A stretch of DNA of 63,531 bases, taken from Rhynchobatus australiae. Lineage: Eukaryota. The stretch covers positions 18,296,314-18,359,844 of the forward strand of contig JAUZTB010000073.1 in assembly GCA_034780895.1 (NCBI GenBank), read 5' to 3'. Each line of letters begins with the position of its first letter. The stretch's first letter is position 1. Positions 30,234 through 56,000 of this stretch are shown here, one piece after another. The position numbers were made by a program.

Positions 30234-32209
30234 AAAACAGCAAGACAAAGACTGTGTCCAAGCTTGGCATGCAGAAGGAGGCTGGGTCGCCAGCCAAGGA
30301 GCCTGCTATGGTACAAAACAAACCTTCCAGAATTCTCCCAATCACAGTTATACTCAGATGAGGACATATTTTTCACTCAATTCTGTGTCTTTATCTCTAA
30401 GATTTTACTAATTTTAATGAAGAAACTTTATCTTATGTACATATAGACACACANNNNNNNNNNCACCCATTTAACATTCGATCTGGAAGATTGGAGGATA
30501 AAGTTATTTTAGTTTTAATTTTGACGTCTTAGAAATCATGAAGCGTCGTCGCATTTAATTCTACCGAGTTACTGATTCTGGCAGTTAAAGCAGTGAATTA
30601 TTCGCTTTAAGCCTTTACAAACTTTTTATTTCTTTTTTTTGTTGCTTATACTTCAGGACCTCAAACTCCAGAGGTTTCGGCCTAGCGAAATACAATGCAG
30701 TCTCCTGAGGTATCGTCGCCTTATTGCCAGGAGTTGAAGCTGGGAACCAACAGACGACCCTGCGTAGATACAAGAGCAGCCAGATTTCAATGTTGGTGTT
30801 TTGGTTTAATATTATTTTTATAGTTAATATTGAAAACATTTTTTGTCCTCTTTTGGTCTGATTTGATTTGAGATATATAGTGATGTATCTAAATTTAAAA
30901 TTGCAATAAGTGAAAAGAAAACTCTAGATTAGGACATGTTTACCTCAACACTATGTTTTTACTTTGGTTTCTGAACTCTGTTGTTCTTTGTTGAAGAGGG
31001 AGGAAAGAATGGTTAGAGAAAGGAAATGGAAGGGAGGAAGATTAATAGCTTTAGTGATATAGGGGAGAAGATAAGTGGTCGGCAAAGAGAAAGAAGAGAA
31101 GCCAGAAAGAATGGAGATTGCAGAGCCAGCTGCCACTAACCCGTAGATCCGAACTTGTGTTTCAAGTATCTCACAAGCTCGTGTCTATAGGTCTGTGTCT
31201 ACATGGTAAAGAACCAACCAGCCATGGATGTGTGTCATTTCCCAGTGGCAATTCTCAATGTGAGATACTGTAACAGTGTTTGCCTGCAGGGGGTCCCAGG
31301 GTAGGCACTGGTGGCTACTATTTGTTGTCCAAGACCATATTTTGTATGTTGGTGTATAAAAACAGGGTGGCAACAACTTGTCTTGATGATAACCAGTAAG
31401 ATAGAATGACATTATATTTGACAGGTCATTTTGCCTAACCAATTTTGTGCTCTAGACAAAACTCCTCAAATCTGAAGCTAGTTGGGNNNNNNNNNNNNNN
31501 NNNNNNNNNNNNNNNNNNNNNNNNNNNNNNNNNNNNNNNNNNNNNNNNNNNNNNNNNNNNNNNNNNNNNNNNNNNNNNNNNNNNNNNNNNNNNNNNNNNN
31601 NNNNNNNNNNNNNNNNNNNNNNNNNNNNNNNNNNNNNNNNNNNNNNNNNNNNNNNNNNNNNNNNNNNNNNNNNNNNNNNNNNNNNNNNNNNNNNNNNNNN
31701 NNNNNNNNNNNNNNNNNNNNNNNNNNNNNNNNNNNNNNNNNNNNNNNNNNNNNNNNNNNNNNNNNNNNNNNNNNNNNNNNNNNNNNNNNNNNNNNNNNNN
31801 NNNNNNNNNNNNNNNNNNNNNNNNNNNNNNNNNNNNNNNNNNNNNNNNNNNNNNNNNNNNNNNNNNNNNNNNNNNNNNNNNNNNNNNNNNNNNNNNNNNN
31901 NNNNNNNNNNNNNNNNNNNNNNNNNNNNNNNNNNNNNNNNNNNNNNNNNNNNNNNNNNNNNNNNNNNNNNNNNNNNNNNNNNNNNNNNNNNNNNNNNNNN
32001 NNNNNNNNNNNNNNNNNNNNNNNNNNNNNNNNNNNNNNNNNNNNNNNNNNNNNNNNNNNNNNNNNNNNNNNNNNNNNNNNNNNNNNNNNNNNNNNNNNNN
32101 NNNNNNNNNNNNNNNTGTGTATGTTTGTATGTGTGTATCTATTTGTTCATTTGGTATGTGTGTGTTCAAGGCTTTATCTGTGTGTTAGTGAGGCGAGTGC
32201 TTTGATAAG

Positions 32210-32252
<43 letters not shown>

Positions 32253-52954: not shown

Positions 52955-53011
<57 letters not shown>

Positions 53012-56000
53012 GACTCTCTATGTGAGANNNNNNNNNNNNNNNNNNTTTTTAAGCCGTTTCTGTCGGCACAAAGTTCACCGAAAGTGCCTGTTCCTTTAGC
53101 CACCGTTGACCAAGAGTGACACAAGGATAGAACAGGATATGTACAAGGAGGAAGGGGGGGGCATGTCTGCCAGAACCCCCCTGTGTATACTATATGACAC
53201 ATCAGAACTGCAGTTGTTAATTTGGCCTTGGCTTGGTACAGGCAGCTGATGCATTGAGGCCCCAGTGACAGGGGTTTGGAAAATACATAACGAAGGAAGC
53301 AGCGGAGAAGGTGGCTGCCGACAAATTTTTTTAAAGAGAGAAAGAATCAGGAGAGACTGTATCATCCGTGCGAGCGAAGGGCTGTCTCTCCCTGGCTTAC
53401 CATTTTGTCGAGAAGCTAGTAGCGACTTGGGGGTCACCGACAATCAGGATTTCGGTTTTATTTTCTCTCTCTCAACAGTCAAGTTCTGAGATTTTTTTTA
53501 TTATTAAATTCTCTCTCCGCTCCCTCCCGGGGCTGGTTACAGACTGTGGTGCTCAGTGCTAATGGGTGAGTTCTGAAGTGATGTTTGGTTATCACGTTCT
53601 TCCCTCCCACCACTGTCCTCCTCTGCCTGTCATTTGCTTCTTAAACCTGATATTTATGGGCTCGGGGTGGGTAGATTCCCCCCTGTCTGTGAGTTGTTTG
53701 GCAGGCTCTGCCTCCTGTCTCTCCCCCTTTTCCTATTCATTTCCTCCCATATTTCATCGTAACAGGATGAACAGTCAGCCCTCGACAAGCTGAGAGAATA
53801 GGAAGGGACACTTCTCCAGAGATTCCCCCCCCAAAAAAAAATGTCATCCATAAATACCCGGCTGATTAAAATGGAGCCAAGACACCGACACGAATGAATA
53901 ATGTCCTATTTCTAACCTTCCTTCTGTCTCTCCTCTCGAAGCAATATTCTCTTTGACTGGGTAAACCGATTTAAAATTCATTTATTCCTGCAAAGTAGAG
54001 CTGGTTAAAGATGCGGGCAAGGTGAGAGTTGGTGTGATTGGCAGGTTTGAGGGATGAGGAGGTGATGTCGGTATAAAACGAAGAAGAAGAAATCTTTCCG
54101 CAAAATAGATTCCTTGCGACTTATTCTGCCTGTGTTTGAATATATTTAATATATCTAACTATGTATATAAAACATGTTGCACACCTCTCAGTCCCTGAGA
54201 CCCTAACTTGTGATGTGTATCTCCTTAATCCACGGGTTAGGCTCTTGGGAGCTGTGTGCTGTGCGTTGACATCTTAAAATAGGAGGACATTTGGAAAGAG
54301 AAAGTTTTGGTGCTGAGGTGTGTCTGTGTGGGTTGACGGGGTGGGGGTGTGGATAAATGGAACAATGTCAGATGACAATCTTACAGACGTCAGCTGATAT
54401 GAAAATTTCTGTTTAAAATTGAACAAAGGCATGTCCAGATTTGCGAGGAAGAGAAATTATATTCGTTAACTTTTTTTTTCATTCTGCACACATGCTGTCA
54501 AGTGTTTGACAAGATGGTGGGATTTGTCCTTGCAACCTCTCAGCCGGCCTCTCCTTTCTTGTGTAACTATACCGAGGGGTTTTGTTATCAAAAATAAATA
54601 AATCAAATAAAATGATTGACAGTTTGAAATAATTCCGTGTGTGGGGTTTGATGTTCGTCTCGAGTCTTGGTTAAAGAGAACGCCTGCAATTCTATGTTTA
54701 ACTGTTGTGAGGAATTGGAAGTTCCCCATTGCCAGTGTGACCCCGTAACAGGACCTGGCTAAAAAAGGGATTATGCTCATAAATTTAGTCCTGTTCATCT
54801 CTCTATGTGCCCCAGAATAGAGAGGGGAGGGGGTTACGTTGAGGGGAAAGGATACTAAATACTGACCAGAGAATAAATTTCTTTCCCTGTCAGGTAAGAT
54901 GATTAAAGAGCTCTACAAACATTCTCCCTCCCTCCCTTCAAATAAACTCCTCCTGTCTCGTCACCACATCAGTCACTGCGCTGTCACCCGGGGGCTACGC
55001 CACCGAGGGGTCGGGAGAACCGCCGCAACAACTTACATTTAATCATTGGTTTAACGAGGTAAAATGTCCAAATGATGCTACACAGGAGGGCAATCAGGAA
55101 GAAATATTATACCGCCCACATGAGGAGAGAGCAGGACAGGTGCCCTAGGGTCTGCAGGTAGGTGCTTCAGAGAGAGGTGCTGTTGAGAGGGGAACTCCAA
55201 GGGGCAGGCAGTGGAGGGTGCGGGGCAATGCATGGGAAGCCAGAATACTCGGATGGATGCAGGCTGCGAGAGGTTGCGGAGAAGGGGAGGGGGCGTGAGC
55301 GCACGTGATTGGTGCAAATGAGTGGGAGGAAGCAACTTTAAAAATAAATGAAAATATATATTTAAAAAAAAAACACTGCAGCTCAGAACTATCAATTGAC
55401 AAACTTGCTTCTCTCCACGTAAGGACTTTCACGGGGCCCGCTTTACAAGGTGAGGGAAAGAGAACTGAAAAGAGAAGATGAACGGGCGGTGAATGTGAGC
55501 GAGGAGCACGGAGTTTGGGTAATGTGGTGAAAAGAAGTCTCCGTGTGGGCCGGAGGAGGGTTTAATCAATGGAAAAGGTAGCATTCGCCCTGTGCAACAC
55601 AAGCAGGTTACCCCAGCAGTGAAGTGCATTGAAATGAATAGCATAATTGCTAGTTGGGTCAATCACCGACAGTCTAGACTGGTCCAGACACATCAATTAG
55701 TGCTGTCTTTAAAGGGGGGAGTTCAGCAGAAACAAGCGGGGCCTTATTGATACTGATCTCTACAGCAGAAACCCAGCTTAGAGAGTAATACACCGACATT
55801 TGGAGGTCCCGGGAAACGTGCAAAATGGGGAGGGAGGGGAATGCCCCGCCAGAAAGAATAACCAATGAAATGTAACACCACCTACCTCCAAACCATACAA
55901 CAATTCATGGGTTTGACAATTTGTTTCTTTCAGGGCTCCTTTTCCGTAGGTTACAAAGACTAACCAGTGTGTTGTTTCGGAGTCAGGGTTGAGAGAAACA

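What the first reader, a model, noticed from the sequence alone, without database searches (positions are those of the whole stretch)
31127..54265. Complete miR-100 / let-7a / miR-125b tricistron, invisible to the ORF track
Seen: three exact mature miRNA sequences, each with a pairing star arm, on the same strand and in the ancestral order. Spacing is ~1.3 kb (including a 629-N gap) and ~21.7 kb. Known: this is the ancient bilaterian developmental-timing cluster (Drosophila let-7-Complex; human MIR100HG, MIR99AHG and miR-99b/let-7e/miR-125a). It is the functional centre of the window, though not a new system.
[Added by the scan's program, not by the reader: the finding's places include an assembly gap (unread letters, written N; its length is only estimated) at 31487 to 32115, 34189 to 34288, 35164 to 35263, 36002 to 36030, 38663 to 38762, 40920 to 41019. 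Whether the letters on both sides are continuous or in frame is not known: test that first.]
Basis: partly seen in the sequence, partly recalled or inferred. Interest (0 to 1): 0.75.

Follow-up and report, generated by a model that had tools for sequence, protein, structure and literature searches.

The report
Known miR-100/let-7a/miR-125b microRNA cluster
This is the well-known, deeply conserved miR-100 / let-7a / miR-125b microRNA cluster in a draft assembly of a non-human vertebrate, so it is real but ordinary.

Summary
Three 22-nt strings on the + strand (31138-31159, 32442-32463, 54192-54213) are identical to human miR-100-5p, let-7a-5p and miR-125b-5p as printed in PMC4200790. Each occurs once; 0 of 100 shuffles gave any match, even with 3 mismatches. 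Each sits in a hairpin (z -4.1 to -4.8) whose arms give 2-nt 3' overhangs.

The let-7 and miR-125b star arms match printed let-7a-2-3p (chicken) and miR-125b-1-3p primers. That makes this the gnathostome "D" locus, the human MIR100HG type (Hertel 2012).

Caveats:
- The three hairpins lie on three contigs joined by scaffolding.
- 629 of the 1,282 bases between miR-100 and let-7a are N. Nine N runs (860 N) lie between let-7a and miR-125b, so the 1.3 and 21.7 kb spacings are nominal.
- "Tricistron", meaning one transcript, is not shown.

Two CpG-retaining domains (o/e about 0.55, against 0.15 elsewhere) lie just upstream of miR-100 and around miR-125b. This recalls the human miR-125b-1-only promoter and CpG island.

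Already known; low interest.

The parts
31131..31201 (+). miR-100 precursor hairpin (5p arm 31138-31159, predicted 3p arm 31174-31195)
   Evidence: Rfam mir-10 family, 66.9 bits against cut-off 47.5. The 5p string is an exact, unique match and is labelled hsa-miR-100-5p in PMC4200790. Fold -29.3 kcal/mol, z -4.10. 18 of 22 5p bases pair, with 2-nt overhangs. The 3p arm string is in 0 searched papers.
32436..32511 (+). let-7a precursor hairpin of let-7a-2 type (5p arm 32442-32463, 3p arm 32487-32508, GGAG in the terminal loop at 32479-32482)
   Evidence: Rfam let-7, 70.8 bits against cut-off 53.5. The 5p string is an exact, unique match and is labelled hsa-let-7a-5p. The 3p arm equals a printed gga-let-7a-2-3p primer. 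Fold -41.9 kcal/mol, z -4.82. 2-nt overhangs at both ends and GGAG in the loop.
54179..54264 (+). miR-125b precursor hairpin of miR-125b-1 type (5p arm 54192-54213, 3p arm 54232-54253)
   Evidence: The 5p string is an exact, unique match and is labelled hsa-miR-125b-5p. The 3p arm equals a printed miR-125b-1-3p primer. Fold -38.2 kcal/mol, z -4.20. 19 of 22 bases pair, with 2-nt overhangs, UG at -14, CNNC at +17 and UGU/GUG in the loop. No Rfam family reaches its gathering score here.
31487..32115 (.). 629-N assembly gap between miR-100 and let-7a
   Evidence: No terminal overlap of its flanks. It makes up 629 of the 1,282 positions between the two 5p arms.
27532..31137 (.). CpG-retaining domain A, directly upstream of miR-100 (candidate unmethylated regulatory or promoter region; inferred)
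   Evidence: CpG o/e 0.56 (96 CpG in 3,596 bases), against 0.15-0.16 in 1-24999 and 32512-50999. The contrast is unchanged after masking simple repeats.
51000..60000 (.). CpG-retaining domain B, surrounding miR-125b (candidate unmethylated regulatory or promoter region; inferred)
   Evidence: CpG o/e 0.53 (224 CpG in 8,512 bases). 22 of the 26 500-nt bins with o/e >= 0.4 fall in A or B, which hold 25 of 125 bins; the borders were chosen after seeing the profile. Human parallels: a CpG island upstream of miR-125b1 (PMC3297514) and a miR-125b-1-only promoter (PMC4561498).

Best explanation
The window carries the orthologue of the gnathostome 'D' let-7 locus (mir-100 / let-7a-2 / mir-125b-1; MIR100HG in human) in a non-human vertebrate draft assembly.

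Three canonical microRNA hairpins lie on the + strand in non-coding DNA. Inferred from established microRNA biology: they are transcribed by RNA polymerase II as part of one or more long non-coding primary transcripts, cropped by Drosha/DGCR8, diced by Dicer and loaded into Argonaute. The 5p arms serve as guides, and they are identical to the human ones. The let-7 hairpin keeps the loop GGAG that LIN28 binds, and it has the 2-nt overhang of 'group I' pre-let-7.

Shown here: the exact mature strings, the paralogue-specific star arms, the hairpin folds, the overhang geometry, and the same-strand ancestral order in the scaffold.

Inferred: expression, processing, host transcript and targets. Also inferred: the two CpG-retaining domains (upstream of miR-100, and around miR-125b) are unmethylated regulatory regions. 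If so, miR-100 plus let-7a on one side and miR-125b on the other could be driven partly independently, as in human.
For: - Exact, unique 22-mers; 0 of 100 shuffles matched, even at 3 mismatches. Their names come from PMC4200790.
- Rfam gathering-score hits for the mir-10 family and let-7 on the + strand.
- Folds with z -4.10, -4.82 and -4.20, and 0 of 200 shuffles as stable.
- 2-nt 3' overhangs at both ends of all three duplexes, and GGAG in the let-7 loop. The GGAG/LIN28 link and the group I 2-nt overhang of pre-let-7a-2 are described in PMC4742387 (passages).
- Star arms equal printed gga-let-7a-2-3p and miR-125b-1-3p primers.
- Locus D is defined, and evidence for it in elephant shark is reported, in PMC3384580.
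- No coding signal: 6 of the 88 stop-to-stop ORFs of >= 90 aa were sent to Pfam, and 0 families matched.
- CpG domains: o/e 0.56 and 0.53, against 0.15-0.16 elsewhere.
- Human parallels for an independent miR-125b-1 promoter and CpG island.
Against: - The miR-125b hairpin reaches no Rfam gathering score. Its identification rests on string identity and fold.
- A hairpin fold alone is not distinctive here. In a crude scan of 90-nt windows, let-7a ranked 5th and miR-125b 8th of 222 hairpin loci, and miR-100 was not among the 30 listed.
- The minus strands of the miR-100 and miR-125b hairpins fold almost as well (z -4.02 and -3.78). For these two, the strand is decided by the mature strings, not by the fold.
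- The three hairpins lie on three separate contigs (30464-31486, 32116-34188, 53046-59716), so linkage, order and orientation depend on scaffolding.
- There are no expression data. No orthologous vertebrate sequence could be compared, because no such collection is on hand.
- The CpG domains were delimited after looking at the profile, and methylation was not measured.
- The miR-100 flanks lack the recalled UG and CNNC processing motifs at the usual offsets.
Confidence: 0.9

Rival explanations
1. A strict tricistron. One primary transcript, started far upstream of the window or in domain A, carries all three hairpins. The CpG-retaining domain around miR-125b is not a promoter; it could be, for example, a Polycomb-type unmethylated valley or an enhancer.
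For: - All three hairpins are on the same strand in the ancestral order.
- A human MIR100HG transcript encompasses all three (PMC4561498).
Against: - In human the same cluster has three further start sites, and the most downstream encodes only miR-125b-1.
- A review calls transcription of this cluster's members 'loosely related' (PMC4742387).
- In this window a 9-kb CpG-retaining domain surrounds miR-125b, separated from let-7a by 18 kb of CpG-depleted DNA.
Confidence: 0.3
2. A scaffolding artefact. The three contigs come from different places or different paralogous clusters, and the apparent cluster or its spacing is produced by the assembler.
For: - Each hairpin is on its own contig, and 10 N runs lie between the first and the last.
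- Some gaps are plainly imperfect joins: 5 of 22 have overlapping flanks.
- The flanks of the 44217 gap recur 1,071 nt downstream.
Against: - By simple counting, only 2 of 48 random arrangements of order and orientation give the canonical one.
- The let-7a-2-type and miR-125b-1-type star arms belong to the same paralogue.
- Overlapping flanks argue that neighbouring contigs really abut.
Confidence: 0.04
3. It is another paralogue: the C locus (mir-99a / let-7c / mir-125b-2), the A locus (mir-99b / let-7e / mir-125a), or decayed non-functional copies.
For: All these loci share the same architecture (PMC3384580).
Against: - The mature strings are those of miR-100, let-7a and miR-125b, and the same table prints a different string for let-7c.
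- The star arms are of let-7a-2 and miR-125b-1 type.
- The hairpins are intact, with 18-19 of 22 bases paired, which does not fit decay.
- Whether it is one of two teleost duplicates (Da or Db) cannot be told, because the taxon is not established.
Confidence: 0.04

Closest known systems
Gnathostome let-7 locus D: mir-100 / let-7a-2 / mir-125b-1 (human MIR100HG, chr11) as defined in Hertel et al. 2012 (PMC3384580)
   Same: - Same three microRNAs, same order and same strand.
- 5p strings identical to human.
- Star arms of let-7a-2 and miR-125b-1 type.
- Non-coding surroundings.
- A CpG-rich region next to miR-125b, as in human.
   Different: - Nominal let-7 to mir-125 distance is 21.7 kb, against 46 kb in human.
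- The mir-100 to let-7 distance is nominally 1.3 kb, half of it N.
- The miR-100 3p arm string was found in 0 searched papers.
- The host transcript is unknown.
Paralogous mixed clusters C (mir-99a / let-7c / mir-125b-2) and A (mir-99b / let-7e / mir-125a)
   Same: Same three-family architecture, derived from the vertebrate genome duplications.
   Different: Different mature and star sequences. The window has the miR-100, let-7a and miR-125b-1 forms.
Drosophila let-7-Complex (mir-100, let-7, mir-125)
   Same: Same order of the three families (PMC4742387 Table 2 and PMC4561498 passages).
   Different: Recalled, not tested here: the fly cluster is compact and is made from one primary transcript. 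Here 21.7 kb and a separate CpG-retaining domain lie between let-7 and mir-125.
mir-3596 (Rfam RF04289), the antisense let-7 loci of rat and cow
   Same: The minus strand of the let-7a hairpin scores 96.7 bits against a cut-off of 96. rno-mir-3596a is antisense to rno-let-7a-2.
   Different: The minus strand folds poorly (z -1.41; 17 of 200 shuffles fold as well). The hit follows from the reverse complement of let-7 and is not evidence of an antisense microRNA.

Membership tests
let-7 precursor family (Rfam RF00027) | Covariance-model score at or above the gathering score, on the strand carrying the mature sequence | tested here: met
   70.8 bits against 53.5, at 32436-32511 +.
let-7 precursor family (Rfam RF00027) | Mature let-7a-5p sequence on the 5' arm | tested here: met
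   Exact, unique match at 32442-32463. The string is labelled hsa-let-7a-5p in PMC4200790.
let-7 precursor family (Rfam RF00027) | GGAG in the terminal loop (LIN28 site) and the 2-nt 3' overhang typical of group I pre-let-7 (a-2, c, e) | tested here: met
   GGAG lies in the 23-nt loop. The predicted duplex has 2-nt overhangs and no bulge at the Drosha end. The features are as described in PMC4742387. The geometry is predicted, not measured.
mir-10 family (Rfam RF00104), miR-100 member | Covariance-model score at or above the gathering score, and an exact miR-100-5p | tested here: met
   66.9 bits against 47.5, at 31131-31201 +. Exact, unique 22-mer at 31138-31159, labelled hsa-miR-100-5p.
miR-125b (mir-125 / lin-4 group) | Mature miR-125b-5p on the 5' arm of a hairpin, with a pairing 3' arm | tested here: met
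   Exact, unique match at 54192-54213, labelled hsa-miR-125b-5p. The 3p arm equals a miR-125b-1-3p primer. Fold z -4.20. 19 of 22 bases pair.
Rfam models as applied to the miR-125b hairpin (not used for filing) | Any Rfam family reaching its gathering score at 54179-54264 | tested here: not met
   The best hits are mir-10 at 24.0 bits (cut-off 47.5) and mir-2003 at 24.8 (cut-off 114). No lin-4-type hit appeared at E <= 1. I do not file the hairpin under either of those models.
Gnathostome D locus (mir-100 / let-7a-2 / mir-125b-1) | All three members on one strand, in the order mir-100, let-7, mir-125 | tested here: met
   This is subject to scaffolding across 10 N runs.
Gnathostome D locus (mir-100 / let-7a-2 / mir-125b-1) | Paralogue-specific precursor sequence (star arms) | tested here: met
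   let-7a-2-3p as in chicken. miR-125b-1-3p. For miR-100 only the 5p arm could be matched.
Gnathostome D locus (mir-100 / let-7a-2 / mir-125b-1) | Synteny with the flanking genes of the D locus | not testable with these tools
   No coding gene was recognised in the window, and no vertebrate genome collection is on hand.
Gnathostome D locus (mir-100 / let-7a-2 / mir-125b-1) | Location in a non-coding host transcript, and co-transcription | not testable with these tools
   No RNA data are available. Only indirect CpG evidence exists.
Bona fide canonical microRNA (expression-based criteria) | Small-RNA reads from both arms with 2-nt offsets | not testable with these tools
   No read data are available. 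Only the predicted geometry is known.

The most novel reading that the evidence does not exclude
The two-part regulatory layout of this cluster may be ancient. One unmethylated CpG domain abuts miR-100/let-7a. A second, about 9 kb long, surrounds miR-125b and acts as its own promoter. Together with an already expanded let-7 to miR-125 spacer of about 20 kb, this layout would be shared between this non-human (possibly non-tetrapod) vertebrate and human. The uncoupling of miR-125b from let-7 would then date to early jawed vertebrates and not to mammals. The extra + strand hairpin in domain B (56152-56224) could be a lineage-specific additional microRNA.
Probability: 0.25. Interest if true: 0.3.

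Novelty: already known. Interest (0 to 1): 0.12.

Why it matters
For annotating this window, the cluster is the one clearly functional element recognised, and it anchors the region as the MIR100HG-type locus. Biologically it adds little, because the cluster, its order and its members are textbook knowledge and have been traced across jawed vertebrates (PMC3384580).

The modest added value has three parts:
- A caution that 'tricistron' is an assumption.
- The CpG landscape, which suggests a separate regulatory domain at miR-125b. This parallels published human data and could be tested cheaply.
- A warning that the spacings are nominal because of the gaps.

Tried and rejected
- **Rfam at E-value threshold**, over 52000-56500 and over the whole window. 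No family model supports miR-125b, and no further microRNA family reached its threshold. The weak hits (MIR444 at 9768-9882, mir-297 and sno_ZL1 in a TG microsatellite, Plastid-psbJ at 58787) fall on repeats or palindromes.
- **CTCF-like core motif** (recalled, degenerate, 1 mismatch allowed). It gave 3 matches against 1.21 expected, and 10 of 100 shuffles had at least 3. None lies in the CpG domains. Dropped.
- **Pfam on ORFs.** 6 of the 88 long stop-to-stop ORFs gave 0 families.
- **Protein atlas** on the ORF at 16614-17189(-). The nearest clusters are reverse-transcriptase-like at 0.88, below the 0.9 level, so this is a lead only.
- **Literature search for the interspersed-repeat string.** 0 papers, so the taxon could not be fixed. 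My impression that the repeat is typical of cartilaginous fishes is recall only.
- **Hairpin scan**. It showed that a fold alone does not single out the three hairpins.
- **Not attempted:**
  - No comparison with orthologous loci, miRBase or MirGeneDB, because no such collection is on hand.
  - The N runs were not filled or looked up.
  - Supplementary files were not seen. Hertel's online table of distances, and Supplemental Tables S4/S5 and Figs S12/S13 of PMC4561498, may bear on spacing and promoters.
- **Human or not.** I do not take the contig for human, for three reasons:
  - The let-7 to miR-125b spacing is 21.7 kb against 46 kb in human.
  - The let-7 star arm matches a chicken primer.
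  - The miR-100 star arm is in 0 searched papers.
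Full report
**What is there**

The window is 63,531 bases with 22 N runs (2,371 N), 41.2% G+C and an overall CpG observed/expected of 0.26. That is a vertebrate-like, CpG-depleted draft scaffold.

At gathering thresholds Rfam reports three matches:
- mir-10 family at 31131-31201 + (66.9 bits, cut-off 47.5)
- let-7 at 32436-32511 + (70.8 bits, cut-off 53.5)
- on the opposite strand of the let-7 hairpin, mir-3596 (96.7 bits, cut-off 96)

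The third hairpin, at 54179-54264, reaches no family's threshold. Its best hits are the mir-10 model at 24.0 bits and mir-2003 at 24.8 bits.

**The mature sequences**

The three 22-mers at 31138-31159, 32442-32463 and 54192-54213 each occur once, on the + strand. With up to three mismatches allowed there is no other copy, and 0 of 100 dinucleotide-preserving shuffles gave any match. A table in PMC4200790 prints these same letters as hsa-miR-100-5p, hsa-let-7a-5p and hsa-miR-125b-5p (passages seen). 31 papers hold at least two of the three strings.

The star arms are informative:
- 54232-54253 equals a primer printed for miR-125b-1-3p (PMC9354350).
- 32487-32508 equals a primer printed for gga-let-7a-2-3p (PMC7324647).
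- The predicted miR-100 3p arm (31174-31195) is in 0 of the searched papers.

So the cluster is the paralogue that Hertel et al. 2012 call locus D: mir-100, let-7a-2 and mir-125b-1 (PMC3384580, section 8).

**Hairpins and processing geometry**

| Hairpin (+ strand) | MFE (kcal/mol) | z-score | Shuffles folding as well | 5p bases paired with the other arm |
|---|---|---|---|---|
| miR-100 | -29.3 | -4.10 | 0 of 200 | 18 of 22 |
| let-7a | -41.9 | -4.82 | 0 of 200 | 19 of 22 |
| miR-125b | -38.2 | -4.20 | 0 of 200 | 19 of 22 |

Fold values are and pairing counts. In the predicted folds both ends of each duplex have 2-nt 3' overhangs.

The let-7 loop carries GGAG, the LIN28-binding motif. The hairpin shows the 2-nt overhang described for group I pre-let-7 (a-2, c, e) in PMC4742387.

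The offsets of the following processing motifs are recalled, not taken from a call:
- miR-125b has UG at -14, CNNC at +17 and UGU/GUG in the loop.
- let-7a has CNNC at +15, +18 and +21.
- miR-100 has neither UG nor a CNNC at +16 to +18.

The strand is clear for let-7: the minus strand has z -1.41, and 17 of 200 shuffles fold as well. For miR-100 and miR-125b the minus strands fold nearly as well (z -4.02 and -3.78), so the strand rests on the mature strings.

A fold alone is not distinctive. In a crude scan of 90-nt windows on both strands, let-7a ranked 5th and miR-125b 8th of 222 single-hairpin loci, and miR-100 was not among the 30 listed.

**Gaps, tested first**

The three hairpins lie on three contigs: 30464-31486, 32116-34188 and 53046-59716.
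- Between the miR-100 and let-7a 5p arms, 629 of 1,282 positions are N.
- Between let-7a and miR-125b there are nine N runs totalling 860 N. The program's note listed five of them; the four it missed start at 44217, 51091, 51457 and 53028.

I tested continuity from the window alone. In 5 of 22 N runs, all of them 100-N placeholders, the last 8-33 nt of the left flank recur as the first letters of the right flank. The control was 1 of 5,000 random junctions. Two of these runs are inside the finding (35164: 15 nt; 38663: 27 nt), so those contigs abut or overlap, and the true distance there is shorter than written.

The 629-N run and the remaining runs in the finding show no such overlap, so their continuity is not established. 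I filled no N runs and looked up none of their letters. Reading frame is irrelevant for a non-coding locus.

The start-to-start spacings of 1,304 and 21,750 nt are therefore nominal. By simple counting, only 2 of 48 random order-and-orientation arrangements of three contigs would give the canonical layout. That, together with the matching paralogue identity of the star arms, argues that the scaffold is right.

**Surroundings**

No coding gene was recognised. There are 88 stop-to-stop ORFs of at least 90 aa, many of them running through N runs or microsatellites. Six were sent to Pfam and matched 0 families. One ORF (16614-17189, minus strand) resembles reverse transcriptases in the protein atlas at 0.88, which is a lead only.

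An interspersed repeat occurs at 4647, 41892 and 58778, with a similar element at 9760-9890. It forms long hairpins; the copy at 58770-58880 folds at -68.3 kcal/mol with z -10.7.

**CpG landscape**

The window is strongly CpG-depleted:

| Region | CpG o/e | CpG count / bases |
|---|---|---|
| 1-24999 | 0.15 | |
| 32512-50999 | 0.16 | |
| Domain A, 27532-31137 (ends at miR-100) | 0.56 | 96 / 3,596 |
| Domain B, 51000-60000 (surrounds miR-125b) | 0.53 | 224 / 8,512 |

The contrast is unchanged after masking simple repeats. 22 of the 26 500-nt bins with o/e >= 0.4 fall in A or B, which hold 25 of 125 bins. The borders were drawn after seeing the profile, so the small hypergeometric p value is descriptive only.

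By inference from the usual link between CpG retention and absence of germline methylation, these are candidate unmethylated regulatory regions. Two published human findings parallel this:
- A CpG island lies upstream of miR-125b1 (PMC3297514, passages).
- The cluster has the MIR100HG transcript spanning all three microRNAs plus three alternative start sites. The most downstream gives a miR-125b-1-only transcript (PMC4561498, passages).

A CTCF-like motif was not enriched.

**How it most likely works**

Shown: sequence identity, folds, geometry and arrangement.

Inferred from established microRNA biology: Pol II transcription of non-coding primary transcript(s), Drosha/DGCR8 cropping, Dicer cleavage, Argonaute loading of the 5p arms, and LIN28 control of let-7 through the loop GGAG. 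Whether all three hairpins ride on one transcript here is unknown. I rate a strict single-transcript reading at about 0.3. A layout with at least a partly independent miR-125b unit seems more likely.

**Comparison and novelty**

The locus meets every D-locus feature that could be tested: members, order, strand and paralogue-specific arms. Synteny, host transcript and expression could not be tested. It differs from human in three ways:
- a shorter let-7 to mir-125 spacer (21.7 kb nominal, against 46 kb)
- a tight, half-unread mir-100 to let-7 interval
- a miR-100 star arm not found in print

The broad taxon is not established. A cartilaginous-fish origin is my recall-based guess from the repeat family, and one search found no paper holding the repeat string.

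No orthologous vertebrate sequences, miRBase or MirGeneDB could be consulted.

**Verdict**

The finding is real and correctly interpreted, apart from the untested word 'tricistron' and the nominal spacings. It is already known biology, and the interest is low.

Noticed in passing
window 32433-32514 (-): The highest-scoring Rfam hit in the window is mir-3596 on the strand opposite let-7a (96.7 bits against a cut-off of 96). The minus strand folds poorly (z -1.41). rno-mir-3596a is the antisense of rno-let-7a-2. An annotation pipeline that keeps the best score would mislabel the strand.
   Followed up: yes
window 27532-31137 and 51000-60000: Two CpG-retaining domains (o/e 0.56 and 0.53) sit in a landscape of 0.15-0.16. 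One ends at miR-100 and the other surrounds miR-125b.
   Followed up: partly
window 56152-56224 (+): A G+C-rich hairpin lies 1.9 kb downstream of miR-125b, on the same strand and inside CpG domain B. For 56141-56250 the fold is -46.9 kcal/mol, z -3.42, with 0 of 200 shuffles as stable; the minus strand is weaker (z -2.13). It has no Rfam match. It is an unverified candidate extra hairpin.
   Followed up: partly
window 4647-4716, 9760-9890, 41892-41961, 58778-58847: An interspersed repeat family whose copies form long, near-perfect hairpins. The copy at 58770-58880 folds at -68.3 kcal/mol with z -10.7. One copy lies between let-7a and miR-125b. The repeat string was found in 0 papers. Its resemblance to repeats of cartilaginous fishes is recall only.
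   Followed up: partly
window N runs starting at 2633, 4083, 18233, 35164, 38663: 5 of 22 N runs, all 100-N, have flanks that overlap by 8-33 nt (control 1 of 5,000). They are unmerged contig ends, not missing sequence.
   Followed up: yes
window 44193-44335 and 45306-45406: Both flanks of the 42-N run at 44217-44258 recur 1,071 nt downstream (77 nt at 100% identity after the gap, 24 nt before it), while the sequences further out differ. This is either a local duplication or an assembly artefact. It was not used to infer the gap's letters.
   Followed up: partly
window 33861-33970: A stable + strand hairpin lies 1.4 kb downstream of let-7a (-50.6 kcal/mol, z -4.11). The stretch looks to me like a decayed transposon ORF remnant on the minus strand. 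I read that by eye from the letters printed; the motif is recalled and no translation or family search was run. It is probably not a microRNA.
   Followed up: no
window 16614-17189 (-) and 44336-44764 (-): These look like decayed retrotransposon ORFs. The first is reverse-transcriptase-like in the protein atlas (0.88, a lead only). The second resembles a LINE ORF2 tail by recall only. Neither matches a Pfam family.
   Followed up: partly
window 29566-29700, 32193-32290, 52938-53027, 59599-59690: Long (TG)n microsatellites (family D1). One lies directly after the 629-N run, about 170 nt upstream of let-7a, and another ends at the 53028 gap. Microsatellites probably caused several of the assembly breaks.
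   Followed up: no
finding text against window 44217-53045: The program's note lists six N runs within the finding. Four more lie inside its coordinates: 44217-44258, 51091-51111, 51457-51806 and 53028-53045.
   Followed up: yes
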